A DNA stretch of 8,402 bases, from the IMG/VR virus record IMGVR_UViG_2660238548_000022. One strand, given 5' to 3'. Made by a program: the position numbers. Below, one piece after another: positions 1 to 3,000 of the stretch; the first letter of the stretch is position 1; each line of letters opens with the position of its first letter. This DNA comes from a virus. Its lineage: Duplodnaviria > Heunggongvirae > Uroviricota > Caudoviricetes.

Positions 1-3000
1 ATGAGCAGGGCAATTCATAGACTTAGCGACACTCTTTTACGAAAATTAAGCGGATCACCAACCACAAAAAACACCTTTTTTAATGATGGTGGCAACCTTA
101 GCGTAAGGCATTCAACCAATGGCCTGTTAACCTGGTATTTCACTTACAGGACCGGAACAGGCAGGAAGGTAGCCCCTGAACGTCTGAGGCTGGGCAATTA
201 TCCCGATCTGAGCCTGAAAGCTGCCAGGGAAAAAGCGGCACAGTGTCGCGCCTGGCTGGCTGAGGGGAAAAATCCGCGCTATGAACTTAATCATGCTGTA
301 CAGGACGCGTTAGCCCCAGTGACGGTTAAGGAAGCGCTCACTTACTGGCTTGAATCGTACGCAAAGGAAAAGCGCACTGACTACGAATCACTGAAAAGCC
401 GGATCAATAAACACATAATTAGCCAGATTGGAGCTATGCCACTGGAAAAATGCGAGCTACGCCACTGGCTGGCCTGTTTTGACCAGCTTGCTAAGCGTAA
501 TCCGGTATCAGCCGGATTTTTGCTACAGGTATGCAAACAGGCGCTTAAGTACTGCCGAAAACGACGATACGCAATCAGCAACGTTCTTGATGATATGGTT
601 GTCGGTGATGTTGGGAAAAAAGCAGAAATAAGCGAGCGCGTACTAACAAACAAGGAGCTTGGGGAATTACTACGCGCCCTTGATGAAAAAATTTACCCAC
701 CGTACTACAGCGCCCTGATTCGCCTCCTGATTGTCTTCGGATGTCGTACCACTGAGCTAAGACGCTCTGAGGTCCAGGAATGGGATTTTAAAGAAATGCT
801 CTGGACCGTGCCGAAAGAACACAGCAAAACGAAGGTAGCAATATTCAGGCCAATACCGGAAGCGATCTTGCCGTTTGTCATGAAGCTGGTGGAGCAGAAC
901 AGGCACACGGGCTTATTGCTCGGAGAACTGAAAGGGCAATCATCCGTATCAGAGTACGGAAGAACGGCACACAGACGCATTAATCAAGCCCCCTGGACGT
1001 TGCACGACATCCGGCACACGTTTACAACGATGCTGAACGATTTAGGCGTGGAACCGCACGTTGTGGAGCAGCTTACCGCGCACCAGTTGCCAGGAATGCA
1101 ACGAGTCTATAATCACTCCCGTTATCTTGATGCAAAACGTGACGCTCTTAATCTATGGGTTGAGCGCCTCGATGTGCTGGCTGGAAATCATGAAAATATT
1201 GTTATGCTGAAGGTGGCCAAATGAAATTACCTAAAAGACTCTATTATCCATTACCTGAAGCGGCAGAAAAGTTAGGCTGTGCAATAAAAGATCTTTATCA
1301 TTACGCATATATAGGCGCTCTTAATATTTCTGTATATATACCAAAAATTGATGCTAAAAAATTCAATTTTTCATTATGTCATTTTATCAATGGTTGTAAT
1401 GAGGAAGAATTAATAAAATATCCTTTCAATGATGAATCTGCTGTTTTTGGAAGTAATTTTACAGTTGGTTTAACTGGTGACACTGAATTTTTAGATAGTG
1501 CCATTATTGGTCCTGTAGGGAATCCTATCAAATGTTATTATGTTAGCAGCTTATCAGGGTTTTATTATACTCCGGCGTATGTTTTTGCTGATGTCGAATT
1601 TAGCATGAGACAATATATAAAATGTTCTCATCTTACGAATAAGTATGGTGATGATAATCTCATGTATGTTTTTTGTAAGGGTGGTTATGAATTTGATGTT
1701 GACTATTTGTGTGTGATGGCTAGTGATTTAGATAATATAAAAAATACGGGAGACTTCCCGAAGATAACAGAAGATAGCCCAAAAGCATCGTCAAAAAGGA
1801 ATGAGGTTATTTACTCTTTAATTAAACTTATTCCAGAAATGGGTGATGTAGACCTGGACACGGAATCATTACCTAAAATAGCAGATTTAATTGATTCTAT
1901 AGCTGCATCCAGAGGGATAGAATTTCCAAAAACACATTGGCAGACATGGCAAAAGTATTTGGGGCGTGAATCTCAACAAAAACGTAAAAAGTGATATCAC
2001 GTGCTGGTAGTGTGATATCACACAAACGGCGTTTTACTACCGCCTAGAATCGTCCTCGTTCGGCAACGTTCGAGGACGTTTTTTTATGAATCAAAATACA
2101 CAATTTCAATCACTATCAGATCGCGTAATCCGTGAGGATGAATGCCGTAAGTTAACAGGAGTGTGCCGCACTACACGCTACGAACTGGAGAAAAAAGGGC
2201 GCTTTCCGTCACGTCTTAATCTGGGCGGTCGTTCTGTAGGGTGGCTGCTGTCCGAGGTTATGGAATGGGTTAAAAGCCGGGATCGCATTAATTCAGGTAA
2301 GGCAGCGTAGGGGGAACATATGACACATAAAACAAAGGCGACCTGTGGCGGTCGCCAATGGGAAAACACTAAACATAAGCCAGAACATCATAGCGATTTG
2401 CTGTCTGGTGGGCAATGTGCTCAGTGTGCTGGCTTGCTGGTGGGCTATTCCTGCTCTTTGGCCTTGCGGCGCTGGCGGCGTTTGATTTCGCCTTTAACGG
2501 CAGTAACTATAAATTGCGCTTTGCTTTCACCTTCATCTAAATTTTTTTCTAAGTCTGCAACAACATCATGCGGGAATCTGGCATTTAACTGTTGCGACTT
2601 ATTATTTGTTGAACCTGTTGCCATTACTGAATCCTCTCTAAGTTGGTGCGATTCAGTATACACAAAAAAAATTCAGAGAAAAGGCTTGAAGTGCGATTCA
2701 CTTGCTGATAGGTTAAAAACAGATGGTGCGATGCACCAAATGACAACGCCCCGCAGTGGTGGCACACATGCAGGGCGTCTAACAACCAACGATAGCAACA
2801 GTATCGAGGTAGCTATGTTAAATCATACCACACACCCGCAAGGGCGGGACTCGCACAACCTGAATAAATACATCTGGCGTTTTATCGCCCTGAGCACGGC
2901 ACAGCCGCGCGTGATTACCATCGAGGCCACCAGCGAACAGGAAGCACGCCAGCAATCCCCAGTTGGCTGCGTGATGGTATTCGCGGCCCGTATTCGTCAG

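What the first reader, a model, noticed from the sequence alone, without database searches (positions are those of the whole stretch)
2321..2814. Arc-like RHH gene convergent with alpA and divergent from the replication operon, with a three-half-site operator array
The minus-strand 59-aa protein has an Arc-type beta-strand plus two-helix pattern, its own SD, and its own terminator placed just after the alpA stop. Upstream of it, facing the operon that leads to the primase, are an inverted repeat (TACTGAATC/GATTCAGTA) and two copies of GTGCGATTCA spaced 45 bp apart. This looks like a small repressor switch governing satellite replication genes. The inverted repeat also brackets the gene's own SD, so autoregulation or RBS occlusion is possible.
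Basis: partly seen in the sequence, partly recalled or inferred. Interest (0 to 1): 0.6.

Follow-up and report, generated by a model that had tools for sequence, protein, structure and literature searches.

The report
Arc-like repressor switch in phage satellite
A 59-residue Arc-like DNA-binding protein sits between alpA and the replication genes of this phage satellite with three matching binding boxes over two back-to-back promoters, and is a strong candidate for the repressor that Gram-negative phage-inducible islands were thought to lack.

Summary
The minus-strand gene 2445-2624 is a genuine, conserved gene. It has a Shine-Dalgarno (SD) site and its own terminator, lies convergent with alpA, and is divergent from the icd-like to primase operon. 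A high-confidence model gives a ribbon-helix-helix (RHH) fold, and Arc is the solved RHH structure with the highest sequence identity to it.

The operator layout needs revising. There are three 11-bp boxes of the form GTG-N5-CAC:
- O1 (2646-2656) lies on the -10/+1 of the gene's own promoter.
- O2 (2691-2701) lies in the spacer of the divergent promoter.
- O3 (2726-2736) lies at about +6 to +16 of that promoter.

In 47 related islands the N5 core is the same in all boxes of one island but differs between islands, giving 11 classes. The classes track the protein's beta-strand residues. They do not track AlpA, Int, Icd-like or primase similarity.

The 9-nt inverted repeat is not conserved, and its left arm probably lies upstream of the transcript, so RBS occlusion is not supported.

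The same module is present in EcCICFT073, the prototype Gram-negative PICI, for which the literature calls a global repressor "unclear".

The best reading is an autoregulated RHH repressor of the replication operon that defines immunity classes. Binding and repression are inferred, not shown.

The parts
2327..2356 (-). Intrinsic terminator of the RHH gene: hairpin 2337-2356, then the U-tract TTTGTTTTAT
   Evidence: -16.9 kcal/mol, z = -5.3. On the plus strand the same hairpin has no T-tract after it, so it is not predicted to stop alpA transcripts.
2445..2624 (-). 59-aa ribbon-helix-helix protein (YlcI/YnfO family, PHROG 949); predicted beta-strand about residues 11-17 (QQLNARF), helix A 19-27, G32-E33-S34 turn, helix B 35-58 with the basic tail KRRQRRKAK
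2633..2639 (-). Shine-Dalgarno sequence AGAGAGG, 8 nt before the ATG
   Evidence: a GGAG-like block is conserved at this position in 45 distinct upstream regions.
2646..2656 (.). Operator box O1 (GTGCGATTCAG; CTGAATCGCAC in gene orientation); overlaps the -10 and predicted +1 of the gene's own promoter
   Evidence: Same position (-32 to -22 from the ATG) in nearly all of the 47 loci.
2655..2660 (-). Predicted -10 of the gene's own promoter P_L (TATACT on the minus strand)
   Evidence: GTATACTG is the most conserved block of the upstream region in 45 distinct loci. Inferred promoter; no transcript data.
2686..2714 (+). Predicted divergent promoter P_R for the icd-like to primase operon: -35 TTGAAG (2686-2691), 17-bp spacer, -10 TAGGTT (2709-2714)
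   Evidence: TTGA and TA...T are conserved at fixed positions in 45 distinct loci. The match is too weak for the consensus scan. Inferred.
2691..2701 (.). Operator box O2 (GTGCGATTCAC); covers the last base of the -35 and the first 10 bp of the P_R spacer
   Evidence: Fixed 45 bp from O1 in nearly all loci.
2726..2736 (.). Operator box O3 (GTGCGATGCAC, one mismatch to O2); about +6 to +16 of P_R.
   Evidence: (D6), 31, 87: present in 44 of 47 loci, in either orientation, 22-36 bp from O2.
2625..2658 (.). Real in this window, but judged a by-product of O1 plus the -10 and the conserved SD-to-ATG spacer.
2746..2778 (+). Conserved hairpin 1 in the 5' leader of the P_R transcript
   Evidence: 13 of 15 tested pairs change on both sides, 90% of cells paired against 29-43% in slid controls, 0 of 500 shuffles reach the observed value. 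Role unknown.
2790..2806 (+). Conserved hairpin 2 in the leader (CGATA/TATCG), next to the SD of the icd-like gene
   Evidence: compensatory GTTA/TAAC to GATA/TATC changes.
2815..3018 (+). First gene of the regulated operon: Icd-like protein, followed by small ORFs, DUF4222 (3626-3925) and a P4-type primase (3922-5670)
2086..2310 (+). alpA, convergent with the RHH gene
   Evidence: PF05930, E = 2e-16; the arrangement is conserved in related loci.

Best explanation
The 59-aa protein is a dimeric ribbon-helix-helix repressor. Its N-terminal beta-ribbon reads three 11-bp boxes (GTG-AATCG-CAC) in the 190-bp region between its own gene and the icd-like gene.

O2 fills the -35/-10 spacer of the rightward promoter P_R, and O3 sits just after its start site. 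Together they keep the icd-like to DUF4222 to primase (replication) operon silent while the satellite is integrated. O1 covers the -10/+1 of the leftward promoter P_L, so the protein limits its own synthesis.

The variable N5 core, matched to variable beta-strand residues, gives each island lineage its own private specificity. Co-resident satellites therefore need not cross-regulate.

Shown here: the fold, the gene's reality, the boxes and their fixed geometry, and the concerted variation of boxes with the protein. Inferred: the promoter assignments, actual binding, the sign of regulation, and how repression is lifted. My suggestion for the last point is that alpA-side transcription, which the plus-strand hairpin is not predicted to terminate, runs antisense through the repressor gene and on into the operon. 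Alternatively, a helper-phage factor inactivates the protein.
For: Fold:
- AlphaFold with a diverse alignment gives pLDDT 90.6, with an extended N-terminus and two helices.
- Weak Pfam hits of family members fall on RHH families (PSK_trans_fac, CB_ParB_C, RHH_1, TacA1).
- hhalign aligns the QQLNARFP strand with Arc's PQFNLRWP. From my own knowledge, Arc contacts DNA through Q9, N11 and R13, which correspond to Q12, N14 and R16 here.

Operators:
- The boxes are at fixed positions in 47 loci.
- The N5 cores of O1 and O2 agree at 3.89 of 5 positions within a locus, against 2.00 +/- 0.25 when loci are permuted; 0 of 20000 permutations reach the observed value.
- O3 is at least 10/11 identical to O2 in 44 of 47 loci, against 0.17% of shuffles, and it occurs in either orientation, so it behaves as a discrete unit.
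- Eleven core classes map almost one-to-one onto beta-strand heptads. The alignment columns that best predict the class are residues 5, 12, 13, 14, 17 and 43.
- Class does not follow the neighbouring proteins. L003 has the same boxes with only 33% AlpA identity. L047 has 66% AlpA identity and L019 has 73% Icd-like identity, and both have different boxes.
- A 40%-identical metagenomic homologue also has three upstream repeats, AGACACCAaCT.

Geometry:
- TTGA(-35) and TA...T(-10) for P_R, and GTATACTG for P_L, are conserved regardless of class.
- Gene order int, alpA, RHH gene (convergent with alpA), then icd-like ... primase (divergent from the RHH gene) is conserved.
- The module is also present in EcCICFT073 with its own boxes, GTGTGGCCCAC twice plus CTGTCCCCCAC.
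Against: - There are no transcript, binding or genetic data. Both promoters are inferred, P_R matches the consensus poorly (4/6 and 3/6), and the scan tool did not call it.
- Sequence-only searches give no significant RHH hit for the window protein itself.
- The link between protein residues and box class is confounded by linkage and shared ancestry. Only the agreement of boxes within a locus is free of that problem.
- The N5 core is asymmetric while an RHH dimer is symmetric, so the stoichiometry per box is unclear.
- Overexpressing AlpA alone is enough to induce EcCICFT073 (PMC6092414). So if this protein is a repressor, AlpA must override it by a route not identified here.
Confidence: 0.78

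Rival explanations
1. The boxes are read by another island protein (AlpA, the Icd-like protein or the primase, for example as iterons), and the RHH gene is only a neighbour.
For: AlpA is a DNA-binding activator of downstream PICI genes (PMC6092414). PHROGs labels the Icd-like family 'transcriptional repressor'. All these genes are linked to the boxes.
Against: Box class is uncoupled from AlpA, Int, Icd-like and primase similarity but matches the RHH strand in every class. The boxes sit on promoter elements, including the RHH gene's own -10, not near the region downstream of pri where PICI origins are reported (PMC10111431). No further copies occur elsewhere in the window.
Confidence: 0.07
2. 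The protein is an RHH antitoxin, and the toxic partner is the divergently encoded Icd-like 'cell division inhibitor', neutralised by protein-protein contact.
For: Many of the closest structures are RHH antitoxin DNA-binding domains. The Icd-like family is named after a cell-division inhibitor.
Against: The gene is monocistronic with its own terminator and has no toxin gene in the operon. Beyond the RHH core there is only a short basic tail, and no toxin-binding domain was recognised. The Icd-like protein varies freely against an identical RHH protein and boxes (the window against L001: 100% against 69% identity).
Confidence: 0.07
3. The protein binds the boxes but activates, or only fine-tunes, P_R rather than silencing it. 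The real on/off control of the operon would lie in AlpA and the conserved leader hairpins.
For: P_R is a weak promoter. AlpA alone induces EcCICFT073 (PMC6092414). A strongly covarying leader structure lies between O3 and the first gene.
Against: A site inside a 17-bp spacer and a site at +6 to +16 are repressor positions. No box lies upstream of the -35, where activators usually bind.
Confidence: 0.08

Closest known systems
Arc (and Mnt) repressors of the phage P22 immI region
   Same: Small RHH protein of similar size. It has the same strand motif (Q-x-N-x-R followed by an aromatic residue and Pro), and Arc has the highest sequence identity among solved RHH structures (28%). Arc likewise sits at closely spaced divergent promoters and represses its own transcription.
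   Different: There is no Pfam Arc hit. The gene here is monocistronic and faces away from its target operon. It has three dispersed 11-bp boxes instead of one 21-bp operator. The controlled genes are icd-like and replication genes of a satellite, not an antirepressor.
CopG of plasmid pMV158 (PMC2724298) and the omega repressor of pSM19035
   Same: These are RHH repressors that control replication or copy-number genes by occupying promoter elements. Omega reads short repeats that work in direct or inverted orientation, as O3 does here.
   Different: CopG is co-transcribed with its target. Omega heptads are contiguous arrays, whereas these boxes are 22-45 bp apart and come in many specificity classes.
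Stl/Rpr master repressors of Gram-positive PICIs (SaPIs)
   Same: The position in the island is the same: the gene lies between the int side and the replication genes and is divergent from the replication operon. The proposed role is also the same, namely keeping the island quiescent (PMC6092414).
   Different: From my own knowledge, Stl is a much larger helix-turn-helix protein; this is a 59-aa RHH protein. Stl is co-oriented with int, while this gene is opposed to int and alpA. Derepression by a helper-phage protein is shown for Stl and untested here.
E. coli K-12 YlcI (DLP12) and YnfO (Qin)
   Same: Same NCBIfam model (NF041551) and same PHROG 949. Both are small, carry the RFP strand motif, and are transcribed divergently from a neighbouring gene.
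   Different: The similarity is only remote (hhalign P = 0.0017). YlcI sits beside nohD in a lambdoid prophage, not in a satellite regulatory region. No function is published for either.
P4 CI RNA and P1 C4 RNA immunity (C4/isrK RNAs upstream of icd-ant)
   Same: They are functional analogues: a lineage-specific immunity device upstream of the early or replication operon, with a structured leader before an icd-type gene (PMC10111431).
   Different: No C4 or isrK match occurs in the window even at E <= 1. Here the specificity device is a protein with DNA boxes. The 59-aa protein has no hit at E <= 0.001 in 50,697 phage records.

Membership tests
Ribbon-helix-helix (MetJ/Arc) superfamily | Strand-helix-helix topology of about 45 residues that superposes on solved RHH domains | tested here: met
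Ribbon-helix-helix (MetJ/Arc) superfamily | N-terminal strand with alternating polar and hydrophobic residues and a conserved basic residue; G-x-S/T/N turn between helices A and B | tested here: met
   S10 and R16 are invariant, Q12-L13-N14-A15-R16-F17 alternates, G32 is at least 90% conserved and E33 is invariant in A1, followed by S/T34.
Ribbon-helix-helix (MetJ/Arc) superfamily | Significant sequence or profile match to a curated RHH family | tested here: inconclusive
   Only sub-threshold hits of family members: PSK_trans_fac 2.9e-4, RHH_1 2.9e-3, CB_ParB_C 0.013; PDB 3no7 E = 0.37. None for the window protein itself.
Ribbon-helix-helix (MetJ/Arc) superfamily | Obligate dimer whose paired strands enter the major groove of repeated sites | not testable with these tools
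   Only single chains could be modelled. Repeated sites that vary together with the strand residues are indirect support.
Arc family (Pfam PF03869) | Match to the Arc family model | tested here: not met
   No Pfam hit at E <= 1. hhalign against Arc gives P = 1e-3 over the strand and helix A only. It is Arc-like, not a member of the Arc family.
YlcI/YnfO family (NCBIfam NF041551; PHROG 949) | Score above the curated cut-off of the family model | tested here: met
   63.3 bits against a cut-off of 30, E = 1.5e-17; phrog_949 E = 3.5e-24. Both labels carry no function.
PICI master repressor (Stl/Rpr type) | Encoded divergently from the replication operon with binding sites over the intervening promoters | tested here: met
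   The arrangement is met; binding is inferred.
PICI master repressor (Stl/Rpr type) | Homology to the Stl/Rpr protein family (a larger helix-turn-helix repressor, from my own knowledge) | tested here: not met
   The protein is 59 aa with an RHH fold. It is an analogue at most, not a member.
PICI master repressor (Stl/Rpr type) | Loss of the gene derepresses the island; a helper-phage factor relieves repression | not testable with these tools
   Needs genetics. The literature states that a global repressor in Gram-negative PICIs is 'unclear' (PMC6092414).
Type II toxin-antitoxin RHH antitoxin | Co-transcribed with a toxin gene and carrying a toxin-binding extension | tested here: not met
   Monocistronic with its own terminator; only a basic tail follows helix B.
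C4/isrK (P1/P4-type) RNA immunity | Match to Rfam C4 or isrK in the leader of the early operon | tested here: not met
   No such match at E <= 1 in the whole window.

The most novel reading that the evidence does not exclude
This RHH protein is the missing master or immunity repressor of Gram-negative phage-inducible chromosomal islands, both classical ones (EcCICFT073) and capsid-forming ones (EcCIEDL933-like). It would come in at least 11 mutually non-cross-reacting specificity classes that allow several satellites to share one cell. Helper-phage induction would act by overriding it, either through AlpA-driven convergent transcription across its gene or through a phage-encoded anti-repressor. 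A second, class-independent control layer, the covarying two-hairpin leader between O3 and the icd-like gene, would act on the same operon.
Probability: 0.4. Interest if true: 0.78.

Novelty: new member of a known kind. Interest (0 to 1): 0.62.

Why it matters
Since 2018, Gram-negative PICIs have been described as lacking an identified repressor. Their induction is explained only by AlpA, whose own trigger is unknown (PMC6092414). [quoted passage not shown]

That gap may come from annotation. In CFT073 the gene carries a high-numbered locus tag (C_RS30120) that is out of series with its neighbours, which suggests it was added later.

This analysis gives that gene a fold, three defined operators, two defined target promoters and a specificity code. 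The question 'is there a repressor, and what sets satellite immunity groups?' therefore becomes testable with a gel shift, a reporter assay and one deletion.

The module is common. Related copies occur in 1107 of 5426 complete E. coli genomes, up to four per genome, and across Enterobacterales. The natural set of matched strand and box variants is also a ready-made dataset on RHH-DNA recognition.

Tried and rejected
- Single-sequence and first-profile searches of the PDB found nothing.
- Pfam found nothing for the window protein.
- hhalign against Mnt was uninformative.
- Rfam found nothing relevant in the window, so C4/isrK-type RNA immunity was rejected.
- tblastn of the protein against 50,697 phage records found no hit.
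- Literature searches for YlcI, YnfO, DUF3950, and PICI combined with RHH or CopG found no functional study. No supplementary files of the cf-PICI preprint were held.
- The inverted repeat as an operator or an RBS-occluding hairpin was rejected on conservation and folding.
- The sigma-70 consensus scan did not call either proposed promoter, so both rest on conservation only.
- I looked for a cassette-like recombination break around the module by comparing the window with the O157 island. The only divergent patch lies inside the icd-like gene (2851-3000), so no such claim is made.
- The terminator-like hairpin in front of alpA is not present in EcCICFT073.
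Full report
CONTEXT

The window is the left part of a phage satellite of the PICI type.
- From left to right it encodes a tyrosine integrase (1-1224), an unknown ORF (1221-1994), alpA (2086-2310), the minus-strand gene in question (2445-2624) and an Icd-like gene (2815-3018).
- These are followed by small ORFs, a DUF4222 gene (3626-3925), a P4-type primase (3922-5670), a terminase small subunit and an HK97-type capsid gene.
- The 1.1-kb alpA-to-icd-like stretch (2000-3100) is 94% identical to an island beside cspD/yljB in E. 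coli O157:H7 strains, where RefSeq annotates the same genes.
- The capsid and terminase genes, together with the O157 location, fit the capsid-forming PICI type described for EcCIEDL933 (10.1101/2022.09.08.507074).

CHECK OF THE OBSERVATION

- The 59-aa ORF starts at the ATG at 2624, with an AGAGAGG Shine-Dalgarno (SD) site 8 nt upstream.
- A minus-strand terminator hairpin lies at 2337-2356 and is followed by TTTGTTTTAT (-16.9 kcal/mol, z = -5.3). It starts 27 nt beyond the alpA stop.
- The 9-nt inverted repeat lies at 2625-2633 and 2650-2658.
- GTGCGATTCA occurs at 2646 and 2691, 45 bp apart. These are the only exact copies in the 8.4-kb window. A third copy with one mismatch lies at 2726.
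- The gene is real. NCBIfam places it in the YlcI/YnfO family (E = 1.5e-17) and PHROGs in phrog_949, 'unknown function'.
- Homologues across Enterobacterales differ mostly at synonymous sites. For example, there are 22 synonymous against 3 non-synonymous codon changes relative to Morganella.

THE PROTEIN

- Sequence searches alone do not name a fold.
- A profile search of 1.84 billion representative proteins found only 92 clusters, so the family is narrow. It did supply diverse relatives.
- With that alignment AlphaFold gives pLDDT 90.6: an extended N-terminus, helix 19-27 and helix 35-58.
- Weak Pfam hits of family members also fall on RHH families.
- hhalign aligns NKSQQLNARFPHDVV with Arc's SKMPQFNLRWPREVL.
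- The G32-E33-S34 turn and the invariant R16 fit the RHH pattern.

'Arc-like RHH' is therefore supported as a fold and as a resemblance. Membership of the Pfam Arc family is not.

THE OPERATORS

I fetched 48 loci from one genome per species and added EcCICFT073. After three loci without the fixed upstream geometry were set aside, 47 upstream regions including the window remained. They share a rigid layout.
- In gene orientation, a conserved GTATACTG lies 36 nt before the ATG and a conserved TTCAAG lies about 30 nt further upstream.
- There are three 11-bp boxes of the form (G/C)TG-N5-CAC.
- In window coordinates, O1 is 2646-2656 and overlaps TATACT (2655-2660, minus strand).
- O2 is 2691-2701 and abuts TTGAAG (2686-2691, plus strand).
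- O3 is 2726-2736.
- Read rightwards, TTGAAG, a 17-bp spacer and TAGGTT (2709-2714) form a promoter whose TTGA and TA...T positions are conserved. O2 fills its spacer and O3 lies at about +6 to +16.
- Read leftwards, TATACT is the -10 of the gene's own promoter, and O1 covers the -10/+1 junction.

The decisive result is that the N5 core differs between islands but is the same in the boxes of any one island. Cores seen include AATCG, AAATA/ACATA, AATGC, AACAC, TCTTA, ATACA, ACTCC, GATTC and TGGCC.
- O1 and O2 cores agree at 3.89 of 5 positions within a locus, against 2.00 +/- 0.25 after permutation between loci. None of 20000 permutations reaches the observed value.
- A third box at least 10/11 identical to O2 is present in 44 of 47 loci, against 0.17% of shuffled controls. 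It is direct in 20 loci and inverted in 27, and lies 22-25 or 33-36 bp from O2.
- Linkage cannot explain this agreement within a locus. It requires one reader for all three boxes.

The eleven core classes map almost one-to-one onto the beta-strand heptad.
- QQLNARF goes with AATCG.
- QMTTVRI goes with AAATA.
- QQIVSRV goes with AATGC.
- LQ(V/L)SVRL goes with AACAC.
- QS(V/I)TVRV goes with TCTTA.
- RQKTARV goes with ACTCC.
- QALKARV goes with TGGCC.
- Further pairs are listed.

The alignment columns that best predict the class are residues 5, 12, 13, 14, 17 and 43. N7, S10, R16 and the tail residues K48 to R52 are invariant and K9 is nearly so, as are the GTG/CAC arms of the boxes.

Class is uncoupled from the neighbouring proteins.
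- L003 has identical boxes with 33% AlpA identity.
- L047 (66% AlpA identity), L017 (58% AlpA identity) and L019 (73% Icd-like identity) have different boxes.
- The window and the O157 island share an identical RHH protein and identical boxes, but their Icd-like proteins are only 69% identical.

A 40%-identical metagenomic relative, also divergent from a row of small genes, has three AGACACCAaCT repeats upstream. The three-box design is therefore old in this family.

WHAT IS NOT SUPPORTED

- The arm of the 9-nt inverted repeat next to the ATG does not vary with the operator class. Across classes that stretch stays GGAG..CAG.A.
- The 9-nt repeat is found in only 2 of the 13 loci that share the AATCG core at O1. 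Elsewhere it falls to TACTG/CAGTA or nothing.
- Its other arm overlaps the -10, so it should lie upstream of the transcript. The predicted 5' UTR is unstructured.
- Autoregulation is therefore likely, but through O1 and not through the inverted repeat. RBS occlusion is unlikely.

MECHANISM PROPOSED

The protein is an autoregulated RHH repressor. O2 and O3 block the promoter of the icd-like to primase operon, and O1 caps the protein's own synthesis. In several classes O1 is the most deviant box. In EcCICFT073, for example, it matches O2 at 8 of 11 positions while O2 and O3 are identical. That fits a weaker autoregulatory site, but this is inference.

How repression is lifted is unknown.
- On the plus strand the hairpin after alpA has no U-tract. 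Transcription from the alpA side could therefore run antisense through the repressor gene and into the operon.
- That would link the module to the published finding that helper phages switch on alpA and that AlpA alone induces EcCICFT073 (PMC6092414). This step is speculation.

COMPARISON WITH WHAT IS KNOWN, AND NOVELTY

- RHH repressors over promoter elements are a well-known kind (Arc/Mnt, CopG, omega).
- What appears to be new is the assignment of this unannotated-function family to that kind, and its place in Gram-negative PICIs.
- A survey of thousands of such islands describes Bro-N proteins and immunity RNAs in the zone after the integrase/AlpA zone. Word searches of its main text for 'ribbon' and for four uses of 'repressor' turned up no RHH repressor (PMC10111431).
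- EcCICFT073 itself carries the module. WP_000190587.1 has the high-numbered locus tag C_RS30120, out of series with its neighbours, and the boxes are GTGTGGCCCAC twice plus CTGTCCCCCAC.
- Relatives occur in 1107 of 5426 complete E. coli genomes, up to four per genome.
- No hit was found in 50,697 phage records.
- In the six genomes of my sample that hold two or three copies, the copies always belong to different classes. With so few genomes this is only suggestive. My rough estimate is that it would happen by chance about one time in ten.
- I cannot exclude a description in a paper outside the searchable library.

VERDICT

This is a new member of a known kind. Its interest is above average because it turns an open question about Gram-negative PICI control into a few simple experiments.

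Noticed in passing
window 2746-2778 and 2790-2806 (plus strand): Between O3 and the icd-like start codon lie two hairpins that are conserved in all operator classes and show strong covariation. 13 of 15 pairs change on both sides, 90% of cells are paired against 29-43% in slid controls, and 0 of 500 shuffles reach the observed value. There is no U-tract after them and no Rfam match. This looks like an undescribed cis-acting leader element of the replication operon.
   Followed up: partly
window 2050-2085, directly before the alpA ATG at 2086: A GC-rich hairpin (CGTCCTCG...CGAGGACG; -19.1 kcal/mol, z = -3.4) is followed by TTTTTTT that abuts the alpA start codon, with no obvious SD. It looks like a terminator in front of alpA, which hints at antitermination control. 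It is not present upstream of alpA in EcCICFT073.
   Followed up: partly
window 2002-2030: Two copies of the palindrome GTGATATCAC lie 19 bp apart, just upstream of the hairpin before alpA. This is a candidate binding site for AlpA or another regulator at the alpA promoter.
   Followed up: no
L052 8474-8860 (E. coli CFT073, EcCICFT073): The prototype Gram-negative PICI has the same RHH gene (WP_000190587.1, high-numbered locus tag C_RS30120) between alpA and an icd-like gene, with its own three boxes. A further small minus-strand ORF (8243-8416) follows it.
   Followed up: yes
window 2625-2629 and 2654-2660; all related loci: CAG.A immediately before the ATG is unusually conserved for an SD-to-start spacer. 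Together with TATACTG it leaves a 5-nt TACTG/CAGTA inverted repeat in many loci, and 7-8-nt versions in a few (L012, L018). No explanation.
   Followed up: partly
window 2815-3018: NCBIfam names this protein 'host cell division inhibitor Icd-like', but its two best PHROG families (6196, 1743) are labelled 'transcriptional repressor'. Its central and C-terminal part (window 2851-3000) is the only strongly divergent patch between the window and the O157 island.
   Followed up: partly
window 3011-3388, against L001 7012-7388: The single 125-aa ORF in the window corresponds to two ORFs in the O157 island. A 1-nt indel near 3150-3200 shifts the register between the two sequences.
   Followed up: no
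L053 3900-4000 (metagenome contig): A 40%-identical homologue (P0193) lies divergent from a row of small genes and upstream of a terminase small subunit. It has three direct AGACACCAaCT repeats in its 142-bp upstream region.
   Followed up: partly
L050 6252-6835 (E. coli K-12 DLP12): The family's namesake YlcI is transcribed divergently from nohD (terminase small subunit homologue) across a 390-bp gap that contains an ATGATAATAATTATCAT palindrome and repeated CATCTAC. This is a different context from the satellites.
   Followed up: no
P0079, P0080, P0088 (about 103 aa): Some close homologues carry a conserved C-terminal extension of about 40 residues after the RHH core (...NPLLSSLDAL...RRKAKE). 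It may be an added oligomerisation or partner-binding module.
   Followed up: no
L005/L030, L007/L034, L015/L038, L017/L021, L040/L043, L039/L042/L046: In all six genomes that hold two or three copies of the module, the copies belong to different operator classes. This is consistent with immunity groups, but the sample is too small for a test.
   Followed up: partly
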